Shown here piece by piece: positions 5,160 to 22,482 of a stretch of 27,568 nucleotides of DNA (the stretch's first letter is position 1; every line of letters starts with the position of its first letter). The notes beneath the pieces were generated by a model. It was not told the origin of the DNA and did not search any database. It saw only the letters and a program-made list of their open reading frames with translations. The stretch covers positions 1 through 27,568 of the forward strand of contig DATNMZ010000493.1 in the NCBI GenBank assembly GCA_035602095.1, in the 5' to 3' direction. A program made the translations under genes and the position numbers. This DNA is from Thermoanaerobaculia bacterium. Its GTDB lineage: Bacteria > Acidobacteriota > Thermoanaerobaculia > UBA5066 > Gp7-AA6.

Positions 5160-6659
5160 CTACGCGGGCGCGGGCTCCGGAGCGCGGCGGGGCGCCTGGC
5201 CCGCGGAGAGCGCCCAGTAGAGCGTTCCGGACGCGAAAAAGCCGACGAACCAGCCGTAGGCGTAGAGCGGTTTCAGCACAGGAAAGACGAACCCGCCCCA
5301 CGCGAGGCCGCAACCGACGAGGGTCGCGAGCACGGCCCTCCAGTTCCATCCGCCGGCGTATCGGTAGATTCCGTGCGTCAGGTAGAGGTCCTCCAGCCGG
5401 AGGCGGGTGCGCCGCACGAGCCAGTAATCCGCGATGAGGACCCCCGCGATGGATCCGAGTCCTCCCGAGTAGCCGAGCAGCCAGACGAAGATGTAGCCCG
5501 AAGGGTCGGCGAGAAGTTTCCACGGCTGCAGCAGGATTCCGATGACGCCGGTGATGAGGCCGCCCGTTTTGAAGCGGATCCAGCGCGGGAAGGCGTTGGC
5601 AAAATCGTTCGCCGGAGAGACGACGTTCGCCGCGATGTTGACCGCGAGCGTCGCGACGACGACGGTGAACATCGAGATCGCAACCACGGCGGGCTGCGAG
5701 AACTTGCCGACGAGAACGACCGGGTCCCAGATCGCTTTGCCGTAAATGATGGCGGTGGCGCTCGTGATCAGAACCCCCATCGCGGCGAAGAGAGACATGG
5801 TCGTCGGAAGGGCGGCGATCTGTCCGACCATCTGGTCCCGCTGGCTGCGCCCGTAGCGGGTGAAATCGGGCATGTTCAAGGAGAGCGTGGCCCAGAAGCC
5901 GACCATCGCCGTCAGCGAGGGGACGAAGACCGGAAAGAACTCGCGGAAAGTGCGGAGAGAGCCGGGTTGGGCGAGAAGCGGGCCGAAGCCGTGCGCCCGC
6001 CGGACCGCCCAGACGAGGAGCGCGCCCGTCATCACGAGCACGAATGGAGCCGCCCAGTTCTCCACCTTACGGAGCAGGTCCATGCCGCGGTAGACGATGA
6101 GGATGTTCAGCGCCCAGAAGAAAAAGAAAGAGAGCCACTCCGCGCCCGTGTGTCCGGACCAGCCCGGCCCGAGCCGCGTCGTCCAGCGGGGATCCAGCGC
6201 GGAGAAGAGCGTGTTCAGTGCGGCGCCTCCGATCCAGCACTGAATGCCGAACCAGCCGCAGGCGACGAGAGCGCGCATGATCGCCGGCAGGTTCGACCCG
6301 AGCGTTCCGTAAGCGGCGCGAGCGAACACGGGAAATGGAATGCCGTAGCGCGTTCCCGGATGGGAGTTCAGGAGGATGGGGACGAGCACGATCGTGTTCC
6401 CGAGGAGGATCGTCAAGAGCGCCTGCCACCAGTTCATCCCCGCCGTCATCAACCCCGACGCCATGTAATAGGTCGGTATGCAGTGCGCCATGCTGATCCA
6501 GAGCGCCGCGTAGTTGTAAGTCGTCCAGGTGCGTCGCGAGACGGGCACCGGGAGGAGGTCGCGGTTGGCGAGCGGTGACGCTTCGATCCGAGTCGCGTCG
6601 ATCAACTCGACGCGGCCGTCCCCGTGGCGCTTCTCGTTGCCGTAAACGGTGGTGCGCAC
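5160..6659 (-). CDS. NCS1 family nucleobase:cation symporter (allantoin/uracil permease-like)
   Basis: About 12 hydrophobic segments; WISMAHCIPTY, GTRYGIPFPVFARAAYG, GWFGIQ, FWATLSLNMPDFTRY, NIAANVVSPANDF motifs; divergent from allB. Confidence 0.92.
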   Translation of the reverse strand: MRTTVYGNEKRHGDGRVELIDATRIEASPLANRDLLPVPVSRRTWTTYNYAALWISMAHCIPTYYMASGLMTAGMNWWQALLTILLGNTIVLVPILLNSHPGTRYGIPFPVFARAAYGTLGSNLPAIMRALVACGWFGIQCWIGGAALNTLFSALDPRWTTRLGPGWSGHTGAEWLSFFFFWALNILIVYRGMDLLRKVENWAAPFVLVMTGALLVWAVRRAHGFGPLLAQPGSLRTFREFFPVFVPSLTAMVGFWATLSLNMPDFTRYGRSQRDQMVGQIAALPTTMSLFAAMGVLITSATAIIYGKAIWDPVVLVGKFSQPAVVAISMFTVVVATLAVNIAANVVSPANDFANAFPRWIRFKTGGLITGVIGILLQPWKLLADPSGYIFVWLLGYSGGLGSIAGVLIADYWLVRRTRLRLEDLYLTHGIYRYAGGWNWRAVLATLVGCGLAWGGFVFPVLKPLYAYGWFVGFFASGTLYWALSAGQAPRRAPEPAPA

Positions 6660-6742
6660 GCCGGCTGATTCTAGCGAGTTCCAAGTTTGCGTTGTCCCGC
6701 CAACGGATTTCGGACAGCGGACAACTGATAACTTCTCGAGCC
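6660..6742. promoter_or_regulatory. Compact divergent control region (NCS1 / allB) with two -10-like hexamers and an inverted repeat
   Basis: TAACTT (6729-6734) lies 8 nt before the allB ATG; TAGAAT on - (6668-6673) lies 8 nt before the NCS1 GTG; inverted repeat GTTGTCC (6691-6697) / GGACAAC (6719-6725). No SD on either side. Confidence 0.45.
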
Positions 6743-8089
6743 ATGCCTCCGGCCGAATTCGTACTGAGGAGCCGCCGCGTCCTGACCCCCGAGGGGATGC
6801 TGCCCGCGAGCATCCGGGTCGCCGGAGGTCGGATCACGAGCATCGAGGCCTATTCGGCGCCCGCGCCCGCCGGAGTTCCGATCGAGGAGGCCGGCGACTC
6901 CGTCGTCTTCCCGGGCCTGCTCGATACGCACGTCCACGTCAACGAGCCGGGACGGGCCGACTGGGAGGGTTTCGAGACGGCCACCGCCGCCGCCGCCGCG
7001 GGGGGGATCACGACGCTGATCGACATGCCTTTGAACTCGGTGCCGCCGACGACGACCGTGGAGGCGCTCCGGGAAAAGCTCGCCGTGGCGGCGGGCCGTT
7101 GCGCCGTCGACGTCGGGTTCTGGGGCGGCGTCGTGCCGGGCAACGGCCCGGAGCTGTCCGGGCTTCGGAAGGCGGGTGCCTTCGGCTTCAAGTGCTTTCT
7201 CGCGCCTTCCGGGGTTCCCGAGTTCCCGGAAATGGAAGTCGCAGAGCTTCTCCCGGCGATGCGGCGGCTCGCCCTTCTCGAAGCGGTGCTGCTCGTGCAC
7301 GCCGAAGATCCCGCCCGGCTTCTCGAGCGAAACGGCCCGGGGCGGTCGTACGCGAGTTATCTCGCCTCTCGCCCGCGTTCCGCCGAAAACGCGGCTGTCG
7401 CGCGGATGCTCGATCTCTGCCGCGAGACGGGCGCGCGAGTACACGTGCTGCACCTTTCGAGCGCCGAGGCGCTGGCACCGCTCGAGAAGGCGCGCCGGGA
7501 GGGATTGCCGGTCACCGTCGAGACCTGTCCGCACTATCTGACGTTTGCCGCGGAGGACATCCCCGACGGCGCGACGCCGTTCAAGTGCGCGCCTCCGATT
7601 CGCGAACGGGAGAATCGGGAGCGGTTGTGGGAGGGCTTGCGGGGCGGCGTGATCGACATGGTCGTCTCCGACCACTCGCCTTGCTCGCCGGATCGAAAGA
7701 GGCTCGAGTCGGGAGACTTCTTCGAGGCGTGGGGCGGGATTTCTTCCCTGGAGCTGACCCTGGCGGCCGTCTGGACCGGGGCGTGCGAGCGTGGGATCGA
7801 TCTTTCGCGCGTCGCGGAGTGGATGGGCGCCGCGCCGGCGCGGCTTGCGGGGCTCGGCGGGTCCCGGGGCGCGCTCGCGCCGGGACGGGATGCGGATTTC
7901 GTCGTCTGGGATCCCGAGAAGACCCGTACGGTGGATCCCGCGCTCCTCCAGCAGCGCCACAAGGTGACCCCGTATGCCGGCCGCCGGCTTCAGGGGATCG
8001 TGCGGGCGACCTGGCTTCGGGGTGAGAAGATCTACGAACACGGAAGGCTCCTCTCCCGCTCGAGCGGCGAGATGCTTCTTTCCGGGTGA
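6743..8089 (+). CDS. allB: Allantoinase (metal-dependent amidohydrolase)
   Basis: DTHVHVNEPG metal site, GFKCFL carbamylated Lys, HAE, HVLHLS, VETCPHYL, FKCAPPIR, SDHSP; next to allantoicase. Start ATG 6743 (MPPAEF). Confidence 0.93.
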   Translation: MPPAEFVLRSRRVLTPEGMLPASIRVAGGRITSIEAYSAPAPAGVPIEEAGDSVVFPGLLDTHVHVNEPGRADWEGFETATAAAAAGGITTLIDMPLNSVPPTTTVEALREKLAVAAGRCAVDVGFWGGVVPGNGPELSGLRKAGAFGFKCFLAPSGVPEFPEMEVAELLPAMRRLALLEAVLLVHAEDPARLLERNGPGRSYASYLASRPRSAENAAVARMLDLCRETGARVHVLHLSSAEALAPLEKARREGLPVTVETCPHYLTFAAEDIPDGATPFKCAPPIRERENRERLWEGLRGGVIDMVVSDHSPCSPDRKRLESGDFFEAWGGISSLELTLAAVWTGACERGIDLSRVAEWMGAAPARLAGLGGSRGALAPGRDADFVVWDPEKTRTVDPALLQQRHKVTPYAGRRLQGIVRATWLRGEKIYEHGRLLSRSSGEMLLSG

Positions 8090-9144
8090 CCCGGGAGCCG
8101 GCCCGGGACAGGAGCGCTGTGGCGGATTTCACCGAACTGATCGACCTCGCCGCGGAACGCGTGGGCGGCGCGGTCCTGGCCGCCAACGACGAGTTCTTCG
8201 CTGGCAAGGAGAACCTGTTGAAGTCCGAGAAGCCCGTCTTCCGAGAGGGCGAGTACACGGACCGCGGCAAGTGGATGGACGGCTGGGAGACGCGGCGCCG
8301 GCGAACGCCCGGTCACGACTGGTGCGTCGTTCGGCTCGGTCTTGCTGGAATCCTGCACGGTTTCGTGGTCGACACGACTCACTTCCGGGGCAACGCGCCG
8401 GAGGCATGCTCGATCGACGCGTGCGAGGCCGCGACGCTCGACCCCGAGTCCCCGGGGAACGCGACCGTCCCGTGGACGGAGCTCGTCCCGCGTTCGCCGC
8501 TTCGCGCCGACGCGGAAAACCGCTTCCCGGCGGCCGCGCCCCGCCCGTTCACTCATGTCCGCCTGAACATCTACCCGGACGGGGGTGTGGCGCGTCTTCG
8601 GGTCCACGGAGACGTCGCTCCCGACTGGGCCTCGATTGCGCGCGCGGGCGGCGAGCTCGATCTCGCCGCGGTGGAAAACGGCGGACTCGTGCTCGCCGCG
8701 AGCGACGAGTTCTTCGGCTCGCGGCACAACCTGGTGATGCCGGGCCGGGGAACGGGTATGAGCGACGGATGGGAGACGCGCCGCCGGCGCGGCCCCGGGC
8801 ATGACTGGGCGATCGTGCGGCTCGGCCGTTCCGGAACGGTGCGCCGGATCGACGTCGACACGGCGCACTTCAAGGGAAACGCTCCGGGGAGCTGCTCCGT
8901 CGAGGTCTGCCGCGCGCCGGGCGCCGGCTCTTTGCAGCTGACCGAAGCCGGCCGCGCCTGGAAAGAGCTGCTCCCGGAGACGAAACTCCAGCCCCACACG
9001 CTGCACCGTTTCGAACGGGAGCTGCGCTCCGCCGGCGAGGCGACGCACGCGCGCTTGAACATCTTCCCGGACGGAGGCGTGAGCCGGCTCCGCCTCTGGG
9101 CGCCGGCTCCCGCGGCTCCGCCAGCCGCGCCAGGGGGCGAGTGA
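8086..9144 (+). CDS. alc: Allantoicase
   Basis: Two internal repeats, each with DEFF...DGWETRRRR..GHDW.(V/I)VRLG and RLNI(Y/F)PDGGV(A/S)RLR; GTGA overlap with the allB stop. Confidence 0.95.
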   Translation: MTREPARDRSAVADFTELIDLAAERVGGAVLAANDEFFAGKENLLKSEKPVFREGEYTDRGKWMDGWETRRRRTPGHDWCVVRLGLAGILHGFVVDTTHFRGNAPEACSIDACEAATLDPESPGNATVPWTELVPRSPLRADAENRFPAAAPRPFTHVRLNIYPDGGVARLRVHGDVAPDWASIARAGGELDLAAVENGGLVLAASDEFFGSRHNLVMPGRGTGMSDGWETRRRRGPGHDWAIVRLGRSGTVRRIDVDTAHFKGNAPGSCSVEVCRAPGAGSLQLTEAGRAWKELLPETKLQPHTLHRFERELRSAGEATHARLNIFPDGGVSRLRLWAPAPAAPPAAPGGE

Positions 9145-9641
9145 GCCTCGCGGCCGCGAGCATCGAGCGGCTGGACGCCCTCCCTCCCGACGCCGCCGAG
9201 CGTGAGCTCCTGGCCTGCTGCGGCTCGCGCGAATGGGCGCGGCAAATGGCGCTCGCCCGCCCGTTTCGGGAGCCGGCCGCTCTCTACCAGGCCGCGGATC
9301 GCATCTGGCGCTCGCTCTCCGAGTCGGACTGGCGCGAGGCGCTGGCCGCTCATCGCCGGATCGGGGACGCGGCCGCGTCCGGCGACGCCGCGGAGGAGCA
9401 ATCCGGAGCTCTCTCGGCGCCGGCATCGATCCGGGAAAGTCTCGCGCTCTCGAACGCCGAGTACGAGGCCCGCTTCGGCCACATGTTCGTCGTTTGTGCC
9501 TCGGGAAAGAGCGGGGAGGAGATGCTGGCCCTTTGCCGGGACCGCCTCCATAATGATCCGAAAGCGGAGCTGCGGCTCGCCGCGCAAGAGCAGCGGAAGA
9601 TCACGCGGCTCCGGCTGGAGAAACTGGCGCGCACGGAATGA
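9141..9641 (+). CDS. uraD: OHCU decarboxylase
   Basis: CCGSREW, AHRRIG (catalytic His), EQSG, NAEYEARFGHMFVVCASG, EQRKITRLRL; GTGA overlap with alc. Confidence 0.9.
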   Translation: MSLAAASIERLDALPPDAAERELLACCGSREWARQMALARPFREPAALYQAADRIWRSLSESDWREALAAHRRIGDAAASGDAAEEQSGALSAPASIRESLALSNAEYEARFGHMFVVCASGKSGEEMLALCRDRLHNDPKAELRLAAQEQRKITRLRLEKLARTE

Positions 9642-9973
9642 CGGCGATCTCGACGCACGTCCTCGATACCGCCCGCGGTCTGCCGGCCGGGGGAATGGCA
9701 ATGCTTCTCGAGGTCCGGGCGGAGGACGGGACCTGGTCGCCGCTCGGGGAGGCCGCCTCGGACGCGGATGGAAGAGCGACGCTGCCCGGCGGGCCGCTCC
9801 GGCGCGCCACGTACCGCCTGACTTTTCGCACGGCCGCGTACTTCGAGGCCCGGCGGGTCGAGGCGTTTTATCCCGAGGTCCAGGTCGTCTTCGACGTTCA
9901 CGACCCTTCGCGGCGGCACCACGTTCCCCTGCTGCTGTCTCCCTGGGGGTATTCGACGTATCGGGGCACCTAG
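9638..9973 (+). CDS. uraH: 5-hydroxyisourate hydrolase (transthyretin-like)
   Basis: ISTHVLDTARGLPA N-terminal signature, FYPEV, HHVPLLLSPWGYSTYRG(T); ATGA overlap with uraD. Confidence 0.93.
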   Translation: MTAISTHVLDTARGLPAGGMAMLLEVRAEDGTWSPLGEAASDADGRATLPGGPLRRATYRLTFRTAAYFEARRVEAFYPEVQVVFDVHDPSRRHHVPLLLSPWGYSTYRGT

Positions 9974-9975: not shown

Positions 9976-10809
9976 GTGCTCGCCGAAAACAGCTACGGCA
10001 AGTCCGGGATCCGTCTCGTCAAGGTGATCCGCCGCGAGGGCGGCCACAGGATCCGGGACCTGACCGTCTCCATTGCGCTCGAGGGAGACTTCGAGGCCGC
10101 GCATGTCGCGGGAGACAACTCGGCCGTCCTGCCGACGGACACGATGAAGAACACGGTGTACGCGCTGGCTCGCACGCATCCGGTCGATTCGATCGAGTCC
10201 TTCGCGCTGGAGCTGTCCGCTCACTTTCTCAAGGAAGACGGTCCGGCGTCCGTCGCGCGTGTCGGCATTTCGGAGCGCCCGTGGGAGCCTCTCGCGGGCG
10301 GCTCGGGGGGACCCTCCCACGCCTTCCTCCGGCCGGGGGCCGAGCGAAGGGTGACGCGCGTTGACCGGACCCGCGCCGGGGTCTCCGTCGAATCCGGGAT
10401 CGAAGACCTGACGATCTTGAAATCCGCGGGCTCCGGTTTCACCGGCTACGCCCGGGACCGTTACACGACCTTGAAGGAGACGGAGGACCGGATCCTCGCG
10501 ACCGCGATGGAGGCCCTGTGGCTCTACGAGCCTCGAGAGATCCCCTGGGACCTCGCCGCACGCGCCGTGCGAAGCACGCTTCTCGAGACGTTCGCCGGCC
10601 ACGCGAGCGCCTCCGTCCAGCACACCCTGTACGCGATGGGGCAGGCCGTCCTCGACCGACACGCCGAGGTCTCCCGAATCCGCTTGACGATGCGCAACAA
10701 GCATCACCTGCTCGTCGATCTCTCCCCCTTCGGCCTGGAGAACCCCAACGAGATTTTCGTCGCGACCGAGGAGCCGTACGGCCGGATCGAGGCGACCTTG
10801 AAGAGGTAG
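9976..10809 (+). CDS. pucL: Uricase (cofactor-independent urate oxidase)
   Basis: C-terminal 277 aa of track ORF 9202..10809 from GTG 9976: NSYGKSGIRLVKV, LPTDTMKNTVY catalytic motif, LKSAGSGF, DRYTTL, SVQHTLY, NKH, PYGRIEA. Stand-alone, not fused to uraD. Confidence 0.93.
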   Translation: MLAENSYGKSGIRLVKVIRREGGHRIRDLTVSIALEGDFEAAHVAGDNSAVLPTDTMKNTVYALARTHPVDSIESFALELSAHFLKEDGPASVARVGISERPWEPLAGGSGGPSHAFLRPGAERRVTRVDRTRAGVSVESGIEDLTILKSAGSGFTGYARDRYTTLKETEDRILATAMEALWLYEPREIPWDLAARAVRSTLLETFAGHASASVQHTLYAMGQAVLDRHAEVSRIRLTMRNKHHLLVDLSPFGLENPNEIFVATEEPYGRIEATLKR

Positions 10810-10935
10810 TTGTCAGTTGTCAGTTGTCAGTTGTCAGTCAAGGGTTCTCGGCTGACAGGTGACAGGTGACAGGTGACAGGTGACAGGTCTTTTTCCGGAA
10901 CCGAGAACTGAGAACTGATAACTGATAACTGAAAA
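10810..10935. repeat. Three-block heptamer tandem array filling the convergent uricase / CitE-like gap; possible bidirectional terminator
   Basis: (TTGTCAG)x4 at 10810-10837; (TGACAGG)x5 at 10853-10887 followed by TCTTTTT; (G/T)AACTGA x4 at 10905-10932 plus a degenerate GAACCGA copy. Blocks 2 and 3 are inverted relative to block 1. Confidence 0.9.
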
Positions 10936-12282
10936 CTACTTCCTCCTCGCCTTCAGGATCCGGAGGAAGGAACGCCCGCGGAGCTCGTCTACGGTCAGGC
11001 CGCTCTTTGCGACGGCCTCCTCCTCCGTGATCGCCCCGCAGCTCACGGCGCGGAGAAAGTAGTTCAAGAGTCCCTGGCCCGTCGCGGCGTCGTCGAAGAC
11101 CTCGCCGACGAGCGTCGCCTGTCCCGCCTTCTCCACGAAGTTGTTCAGCCTCGCCGAAGCGGCGGGGAGCCCCTCGAGGAAAAAAGCGTAGAGAGCGGCG
11201 TACCGCGTCGGCAGCTGCGCCGGATGCAGGTCCCACCCCTGGTAGATCCCGCCGACGAGCGAATGGCGGACGTGCTCGTAGTGGAGCTTCCAGGCGGCGT
11301 GCACCGTTTCGCGATTCTGCGCGAGCTCGCGCCGCGTCAGCGTTCGCTCGCCGGAATGGTGCGGCGGGATCGGAAGAACGTTCGTGGCGCCGTCGGAGAT
11401 CCACACGCCCGTGCCCGCGAGCGCGACCTGCATCGCCTCCCGAGCGAAGTCGCAGGCCGGATGAAGCATGTGCTGGTGCGCCGCCGTGATGTTCAAGGAG
11501 GCGGTGTAGTCGTAAATGCCGAAGTGCGCGGCCGAGCACCGTCCGCGCGCCGCGCCCACGAGGGCTCCAATCGCGATGGCGCCGCGCTCGTCGACGACCG
11601 ACTGGGGAGTCTCGACCATGATCTCCAGGCGGAGCGTCCCGGGTGGAATCGGGAGGGCCTTTTCCAGCGCTTCGAGGATGTCCGCCAGGGCCGAGACTTG
11701 GGCCGGCAAAGTCACCTTCGGAAGCGTCACGACGAAGTTGTCGGGGAGTCCGCCGGAATCCTCGACCAGCCGGGTGATGAACAGATCGAGGGTCCGGATT
11801 GTGCGCGACGCGAGCTCGTCGCCGAGCGACTTGATACGGATGCCGATCGACGCCGGGAGAGTTCCGGCCGCCTTTCCGGTCGCGACCTCGCGCGCCGCCG
11901 CCAGGGCGTGGCCGTCCTCCTCCGCGTCGGGGCGGTTGCCGTAGCCGTCTTCGAAATCGATGCGGTAGTCCTCGACCGGCTCCCGGCGGAGCTTCTCGGA
12001 GACCCGGGTCCAGACGAGGGGAGCGAGCGACGGCTCGATTCCCAGAACGCCGGCGAGGGCGTCGGGCGTCGGAGCAAATTCCTCCAGGAAGCGGAGAGCG
12101 AGAGCTCCGAGCCTCGGGGCGGTGTCCGACTGGAAGACCTGCGCACCTCCGTAGACCGTGTGGACGGGCTGTCGGCGCACGGATTCGCCGGGATACTTTC
12201 GCGCGAAGTCCGCGTTGGGCGCCGAAAGGCTCGCGCGGAAGCCCGCGGTCCGATCGGGGTCGATCGTCGTCCGAGGGTTCAT
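10936..12282 (-). CDS. Uncharacterised CitE / malyl-CoA lyase-like Mg-dependent TIM-barrel enzyme (DUF6986-like)
   Basis: Start ATG 12282 after SD GGAGGGAG (448 aa). QPVHTVYGGA, RIDFEDGYG, GIRIKS, VTLPKV, IMVETPQ, HFGIYDY, GWDLHPAQL map onto the CitE-family DxED / R / LPKV / E / FGxxD / HPxQ motifs. The DUF number is from memory. Confidence 0.8.
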   Translation of the reverse strand: MNPRTTIDPDRTAGFRASLSAPNADFARKYPGESVRRQPVHTVYGGAQVFQSDTAPRLGALALRFLEEFAPTPDALAGVLGIEPSLAPLVWTRVSEKLRREPVEDYRIDFEDGYGNRPDAEEDGHALAAAREVATGKAAGTLPASIGIRIKSLGDELASRTIRTLDLFITRLVEDSGGLPDNFVVTLPKVTLPAQVSALADILEALEKALPIPPGTLRLEIMVETPQSVVDERGAIAIGALVGAARGRCSAAHFGIYDYTASLNITAAHQHMLHPACDFAREAMQVALAGTGVWISDGATNVLPIPPHHSGERTLTRRELAQNRETVHAAWKLHYEHVRHSLVGGIYQGWDLHPAQLPTRYAALYAFFLEGLPAASARLNNFVEKAGQATLVGEVFDDAATGQGLLNYFLRAVSCGAITEEEAVAKSGLTVDELRGRSFLRILKARRK

Positions 12283-13100
12283 GCCGTCTCCCTCCAGAAC
12301 TGCTCCAGCAGATTGGCCGCGACTTCCCGGCGGTACCCGGCCGTCGAGCGCACGTCGTCGATGGGCTGGATCTCTTCCACGAGCGCGCTCCGCCCTGCCC
12401 GGATCGATCCGCGCGAGGCGAGCGCGGCCTCGGTCTTCGGAAGCCGGATCACGGTCGGCGCGACCGAGCCCAGCGCCACGCGCGGGCGCTCCGAGCGGAT
12501 CGCCGCCAGGACGACCTTCGAGATCGCCTGCGCCGCCCGGGTGCCGACCTTTCGGAACCACTGCCGGCCTTCCAGGCGGGGGATCTCGATCGCGACGATG
12601 AGCTCGTCCGGCCGCATCACGGATTGGCGGTAGCCGGTGTAGAAAGAGTCAAACGGTATGCGCCGCGTCGCTTCCGCGCTCCGGAGGACGACGACCGCCT
12701 CCGCGACGGCGAGAACGGGCAGCGTGTCGCCCGCCGGCGAGGCGTTCGCCACGTTGCCTCCGATCGTTCCCCGGTTCTGGATCTGCGCGCCGCCGATCTC
12801 CCGGGCCGCGGCGGCGAGGATGGGAAGGCGCTTCTCGACGAGCGGGGAGCGGAGGATGTCCCGGTAGGTGGCCGTCGCCCCGATCGAAAGCGCGCCCTCG
12901 CGAACCTTGATGCGGCGCAGCTCGGCGAGCGGGGAGAGATCGACGAATCGCGTCTGCCGGAGCGTCCCGAAATTCAGATGGACGTAGACGTCGGTACAGC
13001 CGGCGAGCGGAGTCAGGGGGCCGCCGTCGCGGAGCATGACGAGGGCTTCGCGGAGAGAGCGAGGCTCGAGGAGAGTCAGCGAGGAGATGGCCGTGCGCAT
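12279..13100 (-). CDS. Xanthine dehydrogenase family FAD-binding subunit (PucC/CoxM-like)
   Basis: LAGCTDV, IGGAQIQNRGTIGGNVANASPAGD, FRKVGTRAAQAISKV, IDDVRSTAGYR. Confidence 0.9.
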   Translation of the reverse strand: MRTAISSLTLLEPRSLREALVMLRDGGPLTPLAGCTDVYVHLNFGTLRQTRFVDLSPLAELRRIKVREGALSIGATATYRDILRSPLVEKRLPILAAAAREIGGAQIQNRGTIGGNVANASPAGDTLPVLAVAEAVVVLRSAEATRRIPFDSFYTGYRQSVMRPDELIVAIEIPRLEGRQWFRKVGTRAAQAISKVVLAAIRSERPRVALGSVAPTVIRLPKTEAALASRGSIRAGRSALVEEIQPIDDVRSTAGYRREVAANLLEQFWRETA

Positions 13101-15731: not shown

Positions 15732-15757
15732 TCTCGGAGCGGATCATTCCCGTCGGA

Positions 15758-17108: not shown

Positions 17109-18488
17109 TTACGATCGGGGACTGCGTTTCAAGAACGAGCCGGCTCCGGCCCGTCCGGTGAATTTGCCGTTTTCGACGATCACCCGGCCGCGCGAAAGCA
17201 CCGTCTCCGCCGCTCCGGTGACCGACCGGCCTTCGTACGGGTTGTAGTCCACCTTCATGTGGAGCGTCCGGGCGGAGAGAGTCACTTTTTTCTCCGGGTC
17301 GAAGATGACGAGATCGGCGTCCGAGCCCGGGGCCACCGTGCCCTTGCGCGGAAAGAGGCCGAAGATCTTCGCAGGTGCGGTGGACGTCAGCTCCACGAAC
17401 CGGTGGATGGAGATCCGGCCGGTGCGCACGCCGCCGTCCCAGACGAGGCTCATGCGGGTCTCGATGCCGGGCGCTCCGTTGGGGATCTTCGAGAAATCGT
17501 CGGCTCCGAGCTCCTTCTGGCCGCGCATACAGAACGGGCAATGGTCGGTCGAAATGGCCTGCAGGTCGTTTCCGGCGAGGCCGCGCCAGAGGCGCTCTTC
17601 GTTGCCGGCCGCGCGCAGGGGCGGGCTCATGACGTACTTTGCGCCCGCGAACCCCGGCTCCTCGTAGTTCGCGTAGGAGAGAAAGAGGTACTGGGGGCAG
17701 GTCTCCGCGTACGCGGGGAGGCCGCGGTCCCGCGCCTCGGTCACCATTTCGAGCGCTTCCGCCGCCGAGAGGTGCACGATGTAGATCGGCACGCCGGCGA
17801 TCTCCGCGAGCGCGATCGCCCGGTGGGTCGCCTCCGCTTCGGCGCGCGCCGGCCGCGTCAGGGCGTGGTATTTCGGCGCCCGCTCTCCGCGGGCGAGAGC
17901 CTTCTGGACGAGCACGTCGATCACGCCGCCATTCTCGGCGTGCATGCAGATCGTGCCGCCGTTCTCCCGCGTTCGAAGCAGCGCCCGGAAGATCGAGGCG
18001 TCGTCGAGCATGAAGACGCCCGGGTACGCCATGAAAAGCTTGAAAGAGGAGATGCCCTCGCGGACCAGGGCGTCCATCTCGTCCTCGACGCTGCCGTCGA
18101 GCTCGGTGACGATCATGTGAAACCCGTAGTCGATCGCCGCCTTGCCCTCCGCCTTCTTCATCCAGGCGTCCCGGGCGTGGCGGAGCGTCTGCCCGCGGTA
18201 CTGGATCGCGAAATCGACGACGGCGGTCGTTCCCCCGTGCGCCGCGGCGATCGTGCCGGACTCGAAGTCATCCGCCGACGTCGTTCCTCCGAAAGGCATG
18301 TCGAGGTGTGTATGGACGTCGATCCCGCCGGGGAGCACGTACCGCCCCGCGGCGTCGATGGTGCGGTCGGCCTCCATCGAGAGCGAGGTGCCGATGCACG
18401 CGATCTTTTCGTTTTCGATGAGGACGTCCCCCCGGTACAGGTCCGAGGCGGTCGCGATGGTCCCGTTGCGGATGAGCGTCTTCGTCAT
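17109..18488 (-). CDS. hydA: Dihydropyrimidinase / D-hydantoinase
   Basis: PGGIDVHTHLDMPFGGT, SFKLFMAY, MHAENG, YIVHLS, AETCPQYL, YVMSPPLR, STDHCPF, IPNGAPGIE. Confidence 0.95.
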   Translation of the reverse strand: MTKTLIRNGTIATASDLYRGDVLIENEKIACIGTSLSMEADRTIDAAGRYVLPGGIDVHTHLDMPFGGTTSADDFESGTIAAAHGGTTAVVDFAIQYRGQTLRHARDAWMKKAEGKAAIDYGFHMIVTELDGSVEDEMDALVREGISSFKLFMAYPGVFMLDDASIFRALLRTRENGGTICMHAENGGVIDVLVQKALARGERAPKYHALTRPARAEAEATHRAIALAEIAGVPIYIVHLSAAEALEMVTEARDRGLPAYAETCPQYLFLSYANYEEPGFAGAKYVMSPPLRAAGNEERLWRGLAGNDLQAISTDHCPFCMRGQKELGADDFSKIPNGAPGIETRMSLVWDGGVRTGRISIHRFVELTSTAPAKIFGLFPRKGTVAPGSDADLVIFDPEKKVTLSARTLHMKVDYNPYEGRSVTGAAETVLSRGRVIVENGKFTGRAGAGSFLKRSPRS

Positions 18489-18493
18489 TGCTC

Positions 18494-19363
18494 TTACACG
18501 AGCTGGGCCATCGCCTCGTACGTTTCGGGCCGCCGGTCCCGGTAGAACTGCCAGATGCGCCGGACTTCCTCGATCTGGTCGAGGTCCATCTCGGCCGTGA
18601 TCAGCTCATCTTTGTCTTCCGACCCGACCGCCAGGAAATTGCCTCGCGGATCGACGAAATAGGAAGAGCCGTAGAACCTGCCGATGTTCCAGGGCGCCTC
18701 CGTCCCGACCCGGTTGCTGCAGGCCATGAAGTATCCGTTCGCGACGGCGTGCGCGGGCTGTTCGAGCTTCCAGAGATACTGCGAAAGCCCGGCGACCGTG
18801 GCCGACGGATTGAAGACGATTTCCGCGCCGTTCAACCCCAGGAGCCGCGCCCCCTCGGGGAAGTGCCGGTCGTAGCAGATGTACACGCCAACTTTCGCGT
18901 AGCGGGTCGCAAAGACGGGGTAGCCGAGGTTGCCCGGCTTGAAGAAATACTTTTCCCAGAAGCCCGACGTGTGCGGAATGTGGTTCTTGCGGTACTTGCC
19001 GAGGTACGAGCCGTCCGCGTCGTACACGGCCGCGGTGTTGTAGTAGACGCCCGCCTGTTCGCGCTCGTAGACGGGGATCACCATCGCCATGCGGTACTTT
19101 TTCGCGTACTGCGCGAGCCGCTGCGTGGTCGGGCCCGGAACGGGCTCCGCCATGTCGTACCAGCGCGCGTCCTGGCTGGGGCAGAAGTACGGGCCGTTGA
19201 AGACCTCCTGGAGCCCCAGAACCTGGACGCCCCTCTTCCCGGCTTCTTCGATGAACGGAATGTGCGCCTCGATCGCCGCCTCGGAGATCTTCTCGACGGG
19301 CGCCGAAGCGTCGGAGATCGGATTCGCGCACTGGATCAGCCCGCCGAGAAGCTTACGAGGCAT
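18494..19363 (-). CDS. Nitrilase-superfamily beta-ureidopropionase (beta-alanine synthase, PydC-like)
   Basis: Glu-Lys-Cys triad in LQEVFNGPYFC, YRKNHIP, ICYDRHFPE. Position next to dihydropyrimidinase favours ureidopropionase over N-carbamoylputrescine amidase, which typically has CWDQWFPE. Confidence 0.85.
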   Translation of the reverse strand: MPRKLLGGLIQCANPISDASAPVEKISEAAIEAHIPFIEEAGKRGVQVLGLQEVFNGPYFCPSQDARWYDMAEPVPGPTTQRLAQYAKKYRMAMVIPVYEREQAGVYYNTAAVYDADGSYLGKYRKNHIPHTSGFWEKYFFKPGNLGYPVFATRYAKVGVYICYDRHFPEGARLLGLNGAEIVFNPSATVAGLSQYLWKLEQPAHAVANGYFMACSNRVGTEAPWNIGRFYGSSYFVDPRGNFLAVGSEDKDELITAEMDLDQIEEVRRIWQFYRDRRPETYEAMAQLV

Positions 19364-19393
19364 TGGAATGTCCTCCGTCCGGTCGCCGGTTCG

Positions 19394-20899
19394 TCAGAAC
19401 CATCGCGAGATGACCACCTTCTTGTCGGTGTAGAACTCGAAGGCGTCCCTCCCGTGCACTTTGAGGTCTCCGAAAAAGCTGTCCTTCGCGCCGCCGAACG
19501 GGAAGTAGGCCATCGGCGCCGCCACACCGATGTTCACTCCCACCATCGAAGCGGAGGCGTGCCGGGCGAACTCGCGCGCCGCCTTTCCGCTCGACGTGAA
19601 GATGGACGTGGCGTTCGCGTTCGGGTGCGCATGCATCAGCGCGATCGCTTCGTCGAGTGTCTTCACCGGCGTGATCGAAGCGACCGGTCCGAAGATCTCT
19701 TCGCGGCCGATCGCCATTTCCGGCGAAACGTCGTCGAAGATCGTGGGGCCGAGGAAGAACCCCTGCTCGCGCCCGGGGACGTTCACGCGCCGGCCATCGA
19801 CGACGAGCTTCGCTCCCTCGGCGACGCCTTTCTCGATGTATCCGACGACCTTCTCGCGGTGGCGGCCGCTGATGACCGGGCCCATGTCGACGCCGGGCTC
19901 TGCGCCATCGCCGACCTTGAGCGCCCGCACCGACTCCGCGAGCCTGTCGCGGGCCGTCGCGTGCGCCTCGCCGACCGGAACGAGGACGCTTCCGGCGAGG
20001 CAGCGCTCGCCGGCGCAACCGTAGAAGGACTCGGAGATGACCGGCACGGCGCGGTCCCAGTTGGCGTCCGGCATCACCACGACGAAGTTCTTCGCTCCCC
20101 CGAGGGCCTGAACGCGTTTTCCGGCGTGCGTCGCCCGGCGGTAGACCGCGCGGGCCACGGGCGTCGATCCGACGAAGGACACGGCGGCGATTCCGGGATG
20201 GTCGCAGATCGCTTCGACGACTTCGCGGCCGCCGTTGACCAGGTTCACGACCCCCGCGGGCAGCCCGCACTTCTCGAGCAGCTCGATCATCCGCTTCTGC
20301 GAAAGGGGCACCTGCTCCGAGGGCTTGACGATGAAGACGTTGCCCGTCGCGATCGCGAACGGGATGAACCACAGCGGCACCATCGCGGGAAAGTTGAAAG
20401 GCGCGATGGCGGCGCAGACGCCGACCGGCTGCCGGATGACCTGGCAGTCGATTCCGGAAGAGATGTTCTCGAGCCCGTATCCCATCGAGAGGGACGGCGT
20501 TCCGCACGCGACTTCTACGCACTCGATTCCGCGCCGGACGCTGCCGCGGGACTCGTCGAGCGTCTTGCCATGCTCGGTCGTGACGATCCGCGCGAGCTCC
20601 TCGAAATGCTCCTCGAGCTCGACCTTGAACCGGAAGAGCACCTGGGCGCGGGTCACGGCCGGCGTGTCCCGCCAGGCGGGAAACGCCTGGCGCGCGGCGG
20701 CGACGGCCTGGTCCACCTCGGCGGCCGAGGAGAGAGGCGCGCGGGCGATCACCTCCCCGCGCGCCGGGTTGGTCACGTCCTGGAATTTGGCGGCGCTCGA
20801 GGCGACCCAGCGGCCGCCGATGAAGTTCGGAAGAACGGGCGCGCCGCCGGAAGCGCCGGAACGGGCGGACCTGCCTTCCGAAATCGCGGTACCGGACAT
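19394..20899 (-). CDS. mmsA: CoA-acylating (methyl)malonate-semialdehyde dehydrogenase
   Basis: ATG 20899 after strong SD AAAGGAGG; APFNFPAMVPLW, KPSEQVP, SFVGSTPVA, LGGAKNF, GCAGERCLA, EEIFGPV, FPFGGAKDSFFGD. Confidence 0.93.
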   Translation of the reverse strand: MSGTAISEGRSARSGASGGAPVLPNFIGGRWVASSAAKFQDVTNPARGEVIARAPLSSAAEVDQAVAAARQAFPAWRDTPAVTRAQVLFRFKVELEEHFEELARIVTTEHGKTLDESRGSVRRGIECVEVACGTPSLSMGYGLENISSGIDCQVIRQPVGVCAAIAPFNFPAMVPLWFIPFAIATGNVFIVKPSEQVPLSQKRMIELLEKCGLPAGVVNLVNGGREVVEAICDHPGIAAVSFVGSTPVARAVYRRATHAGKRVQALGGAKNFVVVMPDANWDRAVPVISESFYGCAGERCLAGSVLVPVGEAHATARDRLAESVRALKVGDGAEPGVDMGPVISGRHREKVVGYIEKGVAEGAKLVVDGRRVNVPGREQGFFLGPTIFDDVSPEMAIGREEIFGPVASITPVKTLDEAIALMHAHPNANATSIFTSSGKAAREFARHASASMVGVNIGVAAPMAYFPFGGAKDSFFGDLKVHGRDAFEFYTDKKVVISRWF

Positions 20900-20938
20900 C
20901 GCGACCTCCTTTGGGGGAATGGGAAGAATATCGCGGTC

Positions 20939-21026
20939 CACGTCGCTGCGCGCTGCGCGGGGGATCTGGCTTCGCCACCGGCCACGTCGCTACGCCCTGC
21001 GCGGGGGATCTGGCTTCGCCACCGGC
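20939..21026. repeat. Tandem duplication of a 44-bp unit
   Basis: 20939-20982 and 20983-21026: CACGTCGCT(G/A)CGC(G/C)CTGCGCGGGGGATCTGGCTTCGCCACCGGC, two mismatches. Confidence 0.9.
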
Positions 21027-21145
21027 GAGCGGCTCGCGCGGATGCGCGCTCGACCGCTCGCCTGATCCCCCGCTCCGCGCTCCGCTCCCGCACCGCAAGG
21101 CTCCTCCCTCCCTTTGGTCGGGAGACTCCTCGCGGTGCGAGCGGA
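21001..21145. other. Double-hairpin structured element (REP/MITE-like or ncRNA) in the mmsA-preA intergenic region
   Basis: GCGGGGGATC (21001-10) pairs with GATCCCCCGC (21064-73) and encloses GGCGAGCGG/CCGCTCGCC (21024-32/21054-62) and CGCGC-GGAT-GCGCG. A second hairpin TCCGCTC..CGCACCGC (21081-96) / GCGGTGCGAGCGGA (21132-45) encloses CTCCC-TTTGGTC-GGGAG. Confidence 0.55.
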
Positions 21146-21312
21146 TGGACCTGCGTCGCGGAATACCGGCGTCGTGGTTCCCGTCGGGGCGTAGGGTGGG
21201 GGCTTGTGCCGTCCCGCTTCCGTCCGGCCGTCACAGGACACGCGTCCGCGCGAGCCGCCCGCCGTGCGCCGCACGCAGATTCCACCGTAAGCGAAGCCGA
21301 CGGAAAGCGACG

Positions 21313-21318
21313 TACAAT
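21313..21318 (+). promoter_or_regulatory. Candidate -10 element (TACAAT) for preA-like gene
   Basis: TACAAT ends 24 nt before ATG 21343, with SD GGAGG in between; no convincing -35. Confidence 0.4.
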
Positions 21319-21342
21319 TTAGGGTTTCCACCCGGAGGTGCC

Positions 21343-22482
21343 ATGGCCGCCGATCTCTCGGTCACGTTCACAGGGATCCGGTTCGACAACCCCTTTTTGC
21401 TCTCCTCCGCGCCGCCGACCGAATCGGAGGCCAACATCCTCCGGGCGTTCGAAGCGGGATGGGGCGGAGTGGTCACCAAGACGATCGGGCTTCACCCCGT
21501 GGTCAATGTCCGCGGCCCCAAGACGATGTTCCTTCGCGCGGATGTCGAGAATCCCGCCCTCTCCATGCGCAAGAGGCCGGGGACGGCCCTGCACTCCTCC
21601 TGGAACTGGGAGCTCATCTCCGACAAGACGCTCGACTGGTGGGCTCCACGGATCGGCCGGATCAAGAAGGCGTACCCGAACAAGGTCCTCGTCGCATCGA
21701 TCATGGCCGGGTCGGGCAGCGATTCGGAGCTCGCCCACTGGCAGACCCTCGCCCGCGTCTGCCAGGACGAGGGGGCGGACGCCCTCGAGCTGAACCTCTC
21801 CTGCCCGCACATGGACCGCCAGGACATGGGATCGAACATCGGAAAAGACCGCGATCTCATCTCCGTCGTCGCACAGGTCGTTCGAGAAGTCGCGCGGGTG
21901 CCCATCTGGGCGAAATTGACGCCGTCCACGACGGACATCGTCCTCGAGGCGCGCGCGGCCTTCCTGGGCGGCGCGGACGCGATCTCCTCCTCGAACACGT
22001 TCACCTCTCTCCCGCTCGTCGATCCTGAGACCCTGGAATTCGAGGTGAACGTCGACGGCCTGGTCTCGACCGGCGGGTTGGGCGGTCCGGCGATCCTGCC
22101 GCTCTCGCTCGCCAAGATGGCGCAGATGACGCAGGCCCTTCCGGAGCGGAGCTTCTCCGGAATCGGCGGAATTGCCACGTTCGCGCACGCTCTGAACTAT
22201 TTCCTCCTCGGGTGCGGAACCGTCCAGGTCTGCACGGCGGCGATGCTCGATCGGGCCGTCGGCCCCAACGTGATCCGCAGCCTCGTCCGGGACATGTCCG
22301 AGTTCCTGGAGAAGAGGAAGGACCGCGGCTGGAAGAGCCTCGAGGACTTCCGCGGGCTCTCCCGGAATCGGGTCGTGGCGCAGTCGCAGATCGCGAGGCC
22401 GGACGCTGCGGGTTACCACGGAGGGCGTGAGGCGGCGGAAGGTTACGCGGATCCGGCGGAAGCGCACGCCTCGGTGGAGTGA
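21343..22482 (+). CDS. preA: Dihydropyrimidine dehydrogenase FMN subunit (PreA/PYD1-like), lacking the C-terminal ferredoxin domain
   Basis: ATG after GGAGG (379 aa). FDNPFLLSSAPP, GWGGVVTKT, NWELISD, ELNLSCPH (catalytic Cys), WAKLTP, SNT, SGIGGI, VQVCTAAM. No CxxCxxC motif anywhere. Confidence 0.82.
   Translation: MAADLSVTFTGIRFDNPFLLSSAPPTESEANILRAFEAGWGGVVTKTIGLHPVVNVRGPKTMFLRADVENPALSMRKRPGTALHSSWNWELISDKTLDWWAPRIGRIKKAYPNKVLVASIMAGSGSDSELAHWQTLARVCQDEGADALELNLSCPHMDRQDMGSNIGKDRDLISVVAQVVREVARVPIWAKLTPSTTDIVLEARAAFLGGADAISSSNTFTSLPLVDPETLEFEVNVDGLVSTGGLGGPAILPLSLAKMAQMTQALPERSFSGIGGIATFAHALNYFLLGCGTVQVCTAAMLDRAVGPNVIRSLVRDMSEFLEKRKDRGWKSLEDFRGLSRNRVVAQSQIARPDAAGYHGGREAAEGYADPAEAHASVE

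What the first reader, a model, noticed from the sequence alone, without database searches (positions are those of the whole stretch)
5160..22482. Single about 17-kb supercluster for both purine and pyrimidine ring degradation
Seen: 15 contiguous genes cover xanthine to urate to HIU to OHCU to allantoin to allantoate to ureidoglycolate, and uracil/thymine to dihydro-base to ureido acid to beta-amino acid to semialdehyde to acyl-CoA, with one NCS1 importer. The xdh genes sit inside the pyrimidine transcription unit, not with the urate genes. Established: in E. coli, B. subtilis and Pseudomonas these pathways are separate loci with separate regulators. Inference: a coordinated nucleic-acid scavenging module for N and C from dead biomass. 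Uricase implies aerobic operation. Whether this layout is already described for the lineage needs checking.
Basis: partly seen in the sequence, partly recalled or inferred. Interest (0 to 1): 0.68.

Follow-up and report, generated by a model that had tools for sequence, protein, structure and literature searches.

The report
Merged purine and pyrimidine breakdown cluster
A soil Acidobacteriota genome really does carry the genes for breaking down both purine and pyrimidine bases in one 17-kb block, and related lineages have built similar blocks independently, but every pathway step is of a known kind and joint expression is not yet shown.

Summary
5160-22482 contains 15 contiguous genes. They encode an aerobic xanthine-to-ureidoglycolate route and a reductive uracil/thymine-to-acyl-CoA route.

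- **Origin.** The xdh-DUF6986 operon convergent with the allantoin genes is an old purine module. It occurs across Acidobacteriota and in other phyla. In this Thermoanaerobaculia family (f1) a pyrimidine operon was joined upstream of xdh. The NCS1 permease is of the pyrimidine-module type.
- **Conservation.** The block is kept in 6 of 11 sampled f1 genera. The other 5 lack both halves. Most other Acidobacteriota keep the two modules apart.
- **Independent assembly.** Family f5 built its own version with a different XDH clade. Several other gene orders also mix the two pathways. Chance adjacency is therefore unlikely.
- **DUF6986.** It has a malate-synthase/CitE fold and accompanies allantoicase in 27 of 29 genomes. 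It is most likely the missing ureidoglycolate lyase.

Co-transcription across 15732-15757 is unproven. The gap is 26 bp with no predicted terminator, but no RNA contig bridges it.

No urease or urea amidolyase was found in the genus. Purine nitrogen would therefore leave as urea, which weakens the nitrogen-scavenging reading.

The scan met the same junction before on other DNA (e1-4405833). I rate this a new variant of known pathways, of moderate interest.

The parts
5160..6659 (-). NCS1 nucleobase:cation symporter, pyrimidine-module type
   Evidence: PF02133 429 bits and TIGR00800 414 bits against a cut-off of 353. It scores below the allantoin-permease cut-offs. Homologs outside family f1 (48-77% identity) always lie beside DHPase/bUP/preA and never beside allB.
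6743..8089 (+). allantoinase AllB
   Evidence: TIGR03178 567.7 bits against a cut-off of 357.85. The ATG start at 6743 was set.
8086..9144 (+). allantoicase
   Evidence: TIGR02961 446.9 bits against 277.9, and two PF03561 repeats.
9141..9641 (+). OHCU decarboxylase
   Evidence: NF010372 176.4 bits against 124, and TIGR03180 160.8 against 139.4.
9638..9973 (+). 5-hydroxyisourate hydrolase
   Evidence: TIGR02962 117.7 bits against 87.45.
9976..10809 (+). cofactor-independent urate oxidase
   Evidence: TIGR03383 314.8 bits against 168.4. The GTG start at 9976 was set.
10936..12282 (-). DUF6986, a malate-synthase/CitE-fold enzyme and probable ureidoglycolate lyase; last gene of the long minus-strand array
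   Evidence: PF22484 608.7 bits. AlphaFold model pLDDT 85; Foldseek top hits are malate synthase A, a putative lyase and CLYBL. It lies beside hiuH/alc in 57 of 80 loci across phyla. It is present in 27 of 29 allantoicase-positive Acidobacteriota. AllA was not found in the genus.
12279..13100 (-). xanthine dehydrogenase FAD subunit
   Evidence: PF00941 and PF03450. The best NCBIfam models are XDH FAD subunits, below cut-off.
13129..13626 (-). xanthine dehydrogenase 2Fe-2S subunit
   Evidence: The best NCBIfam hits are pucE/XdhC iron-sulfur subunits, below cut-off.
13623..15731 (-). xanthine dehydrogenase molybdopterin subunit
   Evidence: PF02738, PF20256 and PF01315. The closest PDB entries are human and bovine XOR. 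Gln767, Glu802, Arg880, Phe914, Phe1009, Thr1010 and Glu1261 are conserved.
15732..15757 (-). 26-bp junction between the pyrimidine genes and xdh
   Evidence: No terminator-like site on the minus strand. The junction is 23-60 nt in genus g1 relatives and interrupted in other genera. A contig of run X21 (kind unknown) spans it, but no RNA contig does.
15758..17092 (-). class-III aminotransferase, presumed beta-alanine/beta-aminoisobutyrate transaminase
   Evidence: PF00202 312.8 bits. No NCBIfam model is passed. It clusters with DHPase/bUP/MMSDH in sister family f2 and elsewhere.
17109..18488 (-). dihydropyrimidinase
   Evidence: TIGR02033 628.2 bits against 393.25.
18494..19363 (-). CN-hydrolase-type beta-ureidopropionase (presumed)
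   Evidence: PF00795 218.6 bits. The best PDB match is Drosophila beta-alanine synthase 2vhh; human beta-ureidopropionase also matches.
19394..20899 (-). CoA-acylating (methyl)malonate-semialdehyde dehydrogenase
   Evidence: TIGR01722 582.5 bits against 448.5. The start at 20899 with an AGGAGG site was set.
20900..21342 (.). divergent intergenic region holding a dispersed repeat element
   Evidence: A 44-bp tandem repeat plus hairpins. The hairpin core at 21104-21129 has 20 copies in this assembly, many at contig ends. The same element lies in other intergenic regions of relatives.
21343..22482 (+). PreA-like FMN dihydropyrimidine dehydrogenase lacking the 4Fe-4S domain
   Evidence: NF006183 301.8 bits against 335, covering profile positions 2-329 of 422. 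The best PDB match is pig DPD residues 531-820. No PreT/Fer4_20 was found in the own genome or in five genus genomes.
22479..24431 (+). GAF-domain histidine kinase overlapping the preA stop; a possible sensor, with no evidence of a role
   Evidence: HATPase_c, HisKA and GAF domains. Adjacency to preA is kept in genera g1, g7 and g8.

Best explanation
This is a composite catabolic cluster made of two older modules.

Module 1 (purine) is ancient and widespread. It is xdh(Mo, FeS, FAD)-DUF6986, convergent with allB-alc-uraD-hiuH(-uox). It converts xanthine to urate, 5-hydroxyisourate, OHCU, allantoin, allantoate and ureidoglycolate. DUF6986 probably acts as ureidoglycolate lyase and takes the route on to glyoxylate plus urea.

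Module 2 (pyrimidine) is MMSDH-bUP-DHPase-aminotransferase with a divergent PreA-like reductase and an NCS1 importer. It reduces uracil or thymine, opens the ring, releases NH3 and CO2, transaminates the beta-amino acid and yields acetyl- or propionyl-CoA.

In an ancestor of this Thermoanaerobaculia family, module 2 was joined directly upstream of xdh. The purine module now sits between NCS1 and the rest of the pyrimidine genes. In genus g1 the eight minus-strand genes look like one operon.

Shown:
- gene identities
- XDH active-site residues
- the ancestry of the modules
- conservation of the block and its joint presence or absence within the family
- independent assemblies elsewhere

Inferred:
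- co-transcription
- co-induction
- DUF6986 as ureidoglycolate lyase
- a benefit from joint inheritance and expression when nucleobases from nucleic acids are used, mainly as a carbon source (glyoxylate plus acyl-CoA), with pyrimidines supplying the nitrogen
For: - **Gene functions:**
- **Operon-like spacing and no minus-strand terminators:**
- **Same order** in at least 9 fetched genus genomes and in genera g3, g4, g6 and g8.
- **Joint presence or absence in f1:** both halves are present in g1, g3, g4, g6, g8 and g7 (g7 with a secondary deletion of DUF6986..allB). Neither is found in g2, g5, g9, g10 or g11.
- **The purine module alone** occurs across the phylum and in Verrucomicrobiota, Gemmatimonadota and Actinomycetota.
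- **The pyrimidine operon alone** occurs in sister family f2.
- **Separate loci are the rule:** among sampled genomes with both modules, they are separate except in f1 and f5.
- **Independent fusions with other gene orders:**
  - f5, using a second XDH clade that keeps the XDH residues.
  - L168 (Terriglobia).
  - L091 (family f50).
  - L139, where preA ends the urate operon.
  - L125, where bUP heads the allB operon.
  - L111, where preA lies between the aminotransferase and xdh.
- **DUF6986:** malate-synthase/CitE fold; 27 of 29 co-occurrence with allantoicase; no AllA found; a canonical malate synthase A lies elsewhere in the genome. The precedent is vertebrate malate-synthase-like ureidoglycolate lyase (PMC10120013).
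Against: - There is no transcript evidence for one unit. No RNA contig spans 15732-15757.
- No promoter-like sites were predicted at all, so the scan says little for this lineage.
- In other f1 genera unrelated genes sit at the junction: DUF1326 in G016, and an ECF sigma factor among others in G020. Co-transcription is therefore not required for the block to persist.
- No shared regulator or operator was found. The intergenic regions are dominated by a dispersed repeat.
- PreA lacks any known electron donor.
- bUP and the aminotransferase pass no specific family model.
- The DUF6986 activity is untested.
- MAG assemblies of 89-96% completeness cannot prove that urease, PreT or AllA are absent.
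Confidence: 0.72

Rival explanations
1. Neutral juxtaposition. Two unrelated catabolic loci happened to end up side by side in one ancestor and persist by inertia. There is no joint regulation and no selective benefit.
For: - The junction is interrupted by unrelated genes in G016, G017 and G020.
- No common regulator or operator was found.
- No bridging transcript was seen.
- Most Acidobacteriota with both modules keep them apart.
Against: - At least four different gene orders join purine and pyrimidine genes in separate lineages. These include a second family that uses a non-orthologous XDH.
- Both halves are present together or missing together across 11 genera of f1.
- Spacing of 23-60 nt is kept throughout genus g1.
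- At genome level, 29 of 39 DUF6986-positive genomes have DHPase, against 66 of 262 DUF6986-negative genomes. This count is not corrected for phylogeny.
Confidence: 0.18
2. The pyrimidine-looking genes (PreA-like, DHPase, CN hydrolase, aminotransferase) do not degrade pyrimidines. They act instead on a purine-derived or hydantoin-type intermediate. This would resemble the DHase-X1/HyuA module beside xdh in the E. coli ygeW-ygfT region, or the reductive urate pathway.
For: - Barba et al. 2013 (PMC4016543) describe a DPD/DHOD-like family 'X1' that clusters with XDH and a hydantoinase.
- A 36-39% PreA-like gene sits directly upstream of xdh in L091 and L157.
- The window's PreA scores below the PreA cut-off.
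Against: - DHPase passes the dihydropyrimidinase equivalog model (628 bits against 393), and MMSDH passes its model.
- PreA is far closer to pig DPD (178 bits) than to any DHODH (at most 83 bits).
- The same gene set forms stand-alone clusters without xdh in f2 and many other families.
- The marker genes of the reductive urate route (SsnA, YgeW, carbamate kinase) are absent from the window.
- An oxygen-dependent uricase route is complete here.
Confidence: 0.05
3. Redox coupling. The XDH FAD and Fe-S subunits supply electrons from xanthine oxidation to the iron-sulfur-free, PreT-less PreA. Purine oxidation would then drive pyrimidine reduction, which would explain why xdh follows the pyrimidine genes.
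For: - PreA lacks its Fe-S domain, and no PreT was found in the genus.
- XDH genes lie next to pyrimidine genes in f1, f5 and f50.
- In L111, preA is immediately upstream of xdhMo.
Against: - The same Fe-S-free PreA occurs with DHPase/bUP but without any xdh in f2, f58, f75, f6 and others.
- XDH with DUF6986 occurs without PreA in most lineages.
- An earlier follow-up on other DNA reached the same negative conclusion (e1-4405833).
Confidence: 0.05

Closest known systems
Bacillus subtilis puc regulon and Klebsiella hpx cluster (aerobic purine-to-allantoin/ureide catabolic clusters)
   Same: A three-subunit or equivalent purine hydroxylase, urate oxidation, HIU hydrolase, OHCU decarboxylase and allantoinase are clustered for nucleobase use. 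This is my own knowledge, plus the review PMC13751858.
   Different: - This cluster uses allantoicase rather than allantoate amidohydrolase.
- It carries DUF6986 in place of AllA-type ureidoglycolate lyase.
- It has no PucR/HpxR-type regulator in the block.
- It is physically merged with a complete reductive pyrimidine pathway.
Reductive pyrimidine (Pyd) clusters: PreT/PreA or PydA/PydX, PydB, PydC, and the extended pathway with a beta-alanine aminotransferase (recalled from Yin et al. 2019, J Biol Chem; not read here)
   Same: The order of chemistry matches: base reduction, dihydropyrimidinase, beta-ureidopropionase, transamination, and removal of the semialdehyde.
   Different: - PreA lacks the 4Fe-4S domain, and no PreT partner was found.
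- Beta-ureidopropionase is of the CN-hydrolase (eukaryote-like) type.
- The semialdehyde goes to acyl-CoA through MMSDH.
- The operon continues into xdh.
Saccharomyces DAL cluster, and vertebrate malate-synthase-like ureidoglycolate lyase (PMC10120013; PMC13751858)
   Same: A malate-synthase-fold protein is genetically tied to allantoin and allantoicase genes. Purine carbon leaves as glyoxylate.
   Different: - DAL7 is a true malate synthase.
- DUF6986 is a separate family. Its Pfam match to MS_TIM-barrel is only 22.6 bits, and hhalign gives 8% probability.
- Its activity is unknown.
E. coli ygeW-ygfT / xdhD reductive urate cluster and 'DHase X1' neighbourhoods (PMC4016543)
   Same: An XDH-family enzyme lies next to a hydantoinase/DHPase-family enzyme and a DPD/DHOD-like flavoenzyme.
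   Different: That system is anaerobic and uses SsnA, carbamoyltransferase and carbamate kinase. None of these is present here. The cluster here has an oxygen-dependent uricase and a canonical DHPase and MMSDH.

Membership tests
Aerobic ureide pathway (uricase route to ureidoglycolate) | Urate oxidase, HIU hydrolase, OHCU decarboxylase, allantoinase and allantoicase, each recognisable by a curated model | tested here: met
   TIGR03383 314.8/168.4, TIGR02962 117.7/87.45, TIGR03180 160.8/139.4, TIGR03178 567.7/357.85 and TIGR02961 446.9/277.9 (score/cut-off).
Aerobic ureide pathway (uricase route to ureidoglycolate) | A ureidoglycolate-consuming enzyme (AllA lyase, amidohydrolase or dehydrogenase) | tested here: inconclusive
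   PF04115 was not found in the own genome or in G013 of the genus. DUF6986 is the candidate replacement on the grounds of fold and co-occurrence. Its activity was not tested.
Xanthine dehydrogenase (Mo hydroxylase acting on purines) | Mo, 2Fe-2S and FAD components | tested here: met
   Three adjacent genes carry the expected Pfam domains.
Xanthine dehydrogenase (Mo hydroxylase acting on purines) | Substrate-site residues Glu802, Arg880, Glu1261, Phe914, Phe1009 and Gln767 (bovine numbering) | tested here: met
   Alignment to human XOR 2ckj shows all are conserved. The same holds in relatives and in the f5-type enzyme.
Xanthine dehydrogenase (Mo hydroxylase acting on purines) | Score above the NCBIfam equivalog cut-off | tested here: not met
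   pucD 469 against 784 and XdhA 348 against 780. This is a divergent clade, so the assignment rests on the residues and the genomic context.
Reductive pyrimidine catabolism (Pyd pathway) | Dihydropyrimidinase | tested here: met
   TIGR02033 628.2 against 393.25.
Reductive pyrimidine catabolism (Pyd pathway) | Two-subunit PreT/PreA-type dihydropyrimidine dehydrogenase with Fe-S clusters | tested here: not met
   PreA scores 301.8 against 335, and only profile positions 2-329 of 422 are covered. Fer4_20 was not found in the own genome. In five genus genomes of at least 92% completeness, four had no match and one (G002) had a borderline hit of 22.9 bits (26.2 with frame neighbours, against a cut-off of 25.8) in a 1288-aa frame. 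The FMN domain is DPD-like.
Reductive pyrimidine catabolism (Pyd pathway) | Beta-ureidopropionase | tested here: inconclusive
   A CN-hydrolase whose closest PDB match is Drosophila beta-alanine synthase. N-carbamoylputrescine amidase scores nearly the same. The context supports the assignment.
Reductive pyrimidine catabolism (Pyd pathway) | Removal of malonate or methylmalonate semialdehyde | tested here: met
   TIGR01722 582.5 against 448.5.
Single operon / co-regulated unit | One transcript from MMSDH to DUF6986, and co-induction with the allB operon | not testable with these tools
   Only indirect evidence is available: spacing of -4 to 30 nt and no terminator-like site. No RNA run holds this DNA. 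Metatranscriptome contigs of relatives do not bridge the junction.
Malate synthase / CitE superfamily (for DUF6986) | TIM-barrel fold with the Arg, Glu and Asp metal and glyoxylate site | tested here: met
   Foldseek top hits are 3cuz, 3qqw, 5vxo and 2gq3, all at probability 1.00. Invariant R149, E224 and D258 and a DDAAT motif are present in alignment A1. Mapping these residues to the malate synthase site is from memory and was not tested.

The most novel reading that the evidence does not exclude
The block is a selected 'nucleobase-to-C4' module. Purine carbon leaves as glyoxylate, through DUF6986 acting as a new bacterial ureidoglycolate lyase. Pyrimidine carbon leaves as acetyl-CoA. The two are condensed by the genus's malate synthase A. 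No isocitrate lyase was found in the genus, so that enzyme has no evident glyoxylate-cycle role. This stoichiometric complementarity would be why purine and pyrimidine catabolic genes were brought together independently in several Acidobacteriota lineages.
Probability: 0.25. Interest if true: 0.65.

Novelty: new variant of a known kind. Interest (0 to 1): 0.45.

Why it matters
Nucleic acids are a large pool of carbon, nitrogen and phosphorus in soil. Acidobacteriota are among the most abundant and least cultured soil bacteria.

The two base-degradation routes are physically merged here, and merged repeatedly in different ways. This points to nucleobases being used together as a substrate class.

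The cluster also offers clean genomic handles for three open enzyme questions:
- What DUF6986 does. It may be a bacterial ureidoglycolate lyase with a malate-synthase fold.
- How an iron-sulfur-free PreA without PreT gets its electrons.
- Where the urea goes in organisms with no recognisable urease.

None of this changes the known chemistry of the pathways.

Tried and rejected
- **Transcript test.** No RNA run holds this DNA. I laid four runs at 80% likeness. Metatranscriptome X26 gave 95-98% identical pieces inside xdhMo, xdhFAD, bUP and MMSDH, but no RNA contig crosses 15732-15757. The only bridging contig (X21, 15597-15880) comes from a run of unknown kind.
- **Promoter and terminator scan.** It found no promoter-like sites at all and fewer terminator-like sites than in shuffled sequence. 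It is uninformative.
- **Shared operator search.** I compared the two divergent intergenic regions and dropped the search. These regions vary in length between relatives and are occupied by a dispersed hairpin repeat.
- **hhalign of DUF6986 against the genus's malate synthase.** It gave only 8% probability. The relationship is visible at fold level only.
- **XDH as a uracil or thymine dehydrogenase.** Rejected on active-site residues and on the phylum-wide link to urate genes.
- **Fragmented genes in G021.** Rejected as pseudogenisation, because the flanking icd and cls are equally fragmented. This indicates assembly indels.
- **Literature.** Searches for DUF6986, for Acidobacteria or Thermoanaerobaculia with purine and pyrimidine genes, and for combined clusters found nothing describing this layout.

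Full report
**What is there**

The window is a complete 27.6-kb contig of a soil MAG: 2.7 Mb, 583 contigs, 89% complete. Public names on near-identical proteins place it in Acidobacteriota, class Thermoanaerobaculia. Near-identical DNA occurs in soil, rhizosphere and permafrost metagenomes.

The sequence is about 68% G+C, so many spurious frames are open. I chose genes by third-position G+C and by Pfam and NCBIfam matches. I fixed start codons by inspection.

- The plus-strand operon is allB-alc-uraD-hiuH-uox. All five genes pass curated equivalog cut-offs. The first three junctions are 4-nt overlaps, and hiuH-uox has a 2-nt gap.
- The minus-strand array has eight genes: MMSDH, a CN-hydrolase, dihydropyrimidinase, a class-III aminotransferase, xdh Mo, xdh 2Fe-2S, xdh FAD and DUF6986. 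Gaps run from -4 to 30 nt. No terminator-like site lies on that strand.
- An NCS1 permease is divergent from allB.
- A PreA-like gene is divergent from MMSDH.

**Are the assignments sound?**

DHPase and MMSDH pass their equivalog models.

The Mo subunit scores below every XDH cut-off. Its closest solved relatives are nevertheless mammalian xanthine oxidoreductases. An alignment to human XOR shows Gln767, Glu802, Arg880, Phe914, Phe1009, Thr1010 and Glu1261 (bovine numbering) all conserved. It is a purine hydroxylase, not an aldehyde oxidase or CO dehydrogenase.

The PreA-like protein matches only the FMN domain of PreA. It is much closer to pig DPD than to any dihydroorotate dehydrogenase. It lacks the 4Fe-4S domain. 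Fer4_20 (PreT/GltD-like) was not found in this genome. In five genus genomes of 92-96% completeness, four had no match and one had a borderline hit in a 1288-aa frame.

The CN-hydrolase is closest to Drosophila and human beta-ureidopropionase, though only slightly ahead of N-carbamoylputrescine amidase. For this gene and for the aminotransferase, the assignment rests mainly on context.

**Where the block comes from**

I used DUF6986 as an anchor. The unit xdhMo-FeS-FAD-DUF6986 convergent with hiuH-uraD-alc-allB recurs across many Acidobacteriota families.
- In 80 named genome loci, DUF6986 lies beside hiuH in 57 and beside alc in 53.
- These loci include Verrucomicrobiota, Gemmatimonadota and Actinomycetota MAGs.
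- The xdh genes therefore do belong with the urate genes. This is the ancestral purine module.

The pyrimidine genes form their own cluster, usually with an NCS1 permease, in most Acidobacteriota.
- Sister family f2 has MMSDH-bUP-DHPase-aminotransferase with no xdh and no DUF6986.
- The window's NCS1 is 66-77% identical to permeases that sit beside DHPase, bUP or preA in other families. No homolog outside f1 lies beside allB.
- In this family the purine module is therefore enclosed by pyrimidine-module genes.

**Is the adjacency conserved?**

The whole block, in the same order and with the same flanks (cls, sthA, histidine kinase, icd), is present in every sufficiently long contig of genus g1 that I fetched. 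It is also present in genera g3, g4, g6 and g8.

Genus g7 (a closed genome) retains preA, the pyrimidine operon, xdh and NCS1. It has lost DUF6986 through allB, leaving a 98-residue DUF6986 remnant.

The other five sampled f1 genera have neither DHPase nor DUF6986. The two halves are gained or lost together.

The 23-60-nt aminotransferase-xdh junction holds only within g1. Other genera carry inserts there:
- preA in L111
- DUF1326 in G016
- an unassigned ORF in G017
- 3.6 kb including an ECF sigma factor in G020

**Is the adjacency more than chance?**

In an evenly drawn sample of 301 Acidobacteriota genomes:
- 39 have a strong DUF6986 match and 95 have a DHPase ortholog.
- 29 have both, which is 74% of DUF6986 carriers against 25% of non-carriers. 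These counts are not corrected for phylogeny.
- Only f1 and f5 have the two modules within about 30 kb. Elsewhere they are on different contigs or 144 kb to 1.3 Mb apart.

Family f5 has a different arrangement: NCS1 | preA ... DHPase-bUP-FeS-FAD-Mo ... allB-alc-uraD-hiuH. Its Mo subunit is only 31% identical to the window's, but it keeps all the XDH residues and belongs to another XDH clade.

Further gene orders mix the two pathways:
- L168, a Terriglobia MAG
- L091, family f50
- L139, where preA is the last gene of the urate operon
- L125, where bUP sits directly upstream of allB
- L135

Several independent assemblies argue for selection rather than accident. The scan had already met the L111-like junction on other DNA and reached the same reading (e1-4405833).

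**DUF6986 and the end of the purine route**

- No AllA-type ureidoglycolate lyase was found in this genome or in G013, the one other genus member in the sample. Only 13 of the 301 genomes have one.
- Allantoicase occurs in 29 of the 301 genomes. Of these, 27 carry DUF6986 and only 5 carry a weak AllA match.
- The AlphaFold model (pLDDT 85) matches malate synthases A and G and CitE/CLYBL lyases.
- The genus has a canonical malate synthase A elsewhere. No isocitrate lyase was found.
- Vertebrate malate-synthase-like proteins are ureidoglycolate lyases (PMC10120013).

From these points I judge DUF6986 to be the missing lyase (about 55%) rather than a second malate synthase or malyl-CoA-type enzyme (about 25%). 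The cluster would then run to glyoxylate.

**Limits of the scavenging interpretation**

Allantoicase plus a lyase release all four ring nitrogens as urea. In five genus genomes:
- the best urease-alpha match was 26 bits, against a cut-off of 680;
- allophanate hydrolase and urea carboxylase gave only paralog-level matches.

Unless an unknown enzyme exists, the purine half yields carbon and reducing power while urea is lost. Only the pyrimidine half releases usable nitrogen.

No nuclease or nucleosidase gene is in the window. 'Dead biomass' remains an inference.

Co-transcription and co-induction remain untested.

**Caveats on sources**

Genomes G003 and G013 are unpublished. They add only to genus-level counts, and no conclusion depends on them alone. 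Absences are 'not found in MAGs of 89-96% completeness'.

**Verdict**

This is a real, conserved composite cluster, and similar blocks have been assembled convergently. Its chemistry is known. Its organisation is not described in the literature I could search. Two of its parts, DUF6986 and the Fe-S-free PreA, are enzymatically unresolved. I rate it a new variant of a known kind, of moderate interest.

Noticed in passing
window 20939-21145 (core 21104-21129): The hairpin-rich element upstream of MMSDH and preA is a dispersed extragenic repeat. It has 20 copies (up to 2 mismatches) in this 2.7-Mb assembly, many within 100 nt of contig ends. The same element sits in the NCS1-allB spacer of relatives (L018, L026). 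It is therefore unlikely to be an operon-specific regulatory structure.
   Followed up: partly
whole genome G000 and G001, G007, G008, G014: No urease, allophanate hydrolase or urea carboxylase scored above cut-off, although the allantoicase route releases two urea per urate. The fate of that urea is unexplained.
   Followed up: partly
G000:C254:~2590-4183 and genus relatives: A canonical malate synthase A is present in all five genus genomes searched, but isocitrate lyase was not found in any. Glyoxylate must therefore come from elsewhere, possibly from purine breakdown.
   Followed up: partly
window 22479-24431 versus L013:6358-9390: The GAF histidine kinase after preA is 650 aa here and overlaps the preA stop codon. 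In relatives the homologous frame is about 1010 aa, and about 1.2 kb separates preA from the conserved part. This genome appears to lack an N-terminal sensor region.
   Followed up: no
L180/L181 (G020:C1:2504000-2540000): A closed genome of genus g7 has deleted most of DUF6986 together with uox-hiuH-uraD-alc-allB. It keeps xdh, the pyrimidine operon and NCS1. A LytS/LytTR two-component pair sits directly upstream of MMSDH.
   Followed up: partly
L094/L187 (G118:C61:198500-217200), L188/L062 (G106:C1:207600-224100), L135: Family f5 has a second, independently built purine-plus-pyrimidine block. It uses an XDH of another clade, with gene order FeS-FAD-Mo and 31% identity in the Mo subunit.
   Followed up: yes
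L080 and G112, G159, G200, G210, G238, G265, G282, G317, G334: A divergent DUF6986 subfamily (about 43% identity, scores around 450-470 bits) occurs in genomes where allantoicase was not found. It may have a different role.
   Followed up: no
L030:8771-9517: In genus g3, a DUF1326 gene is inserted on the same strand between the aminotransferase and xdhMo.
   Followed up: no
L091:6024-7001, L157:7346-8305: A distant PreA/DHOD-like gene (36-39% identity to the window's PreA) lies directly upstream of or near xdh. It may be the 'DHase X1' family of Barba et al. 2013.
   Followed up: no
Depth in several runs rises sharply at 10800-11150, which suggests a repeated or widely shared sequence.
   Followed up: no
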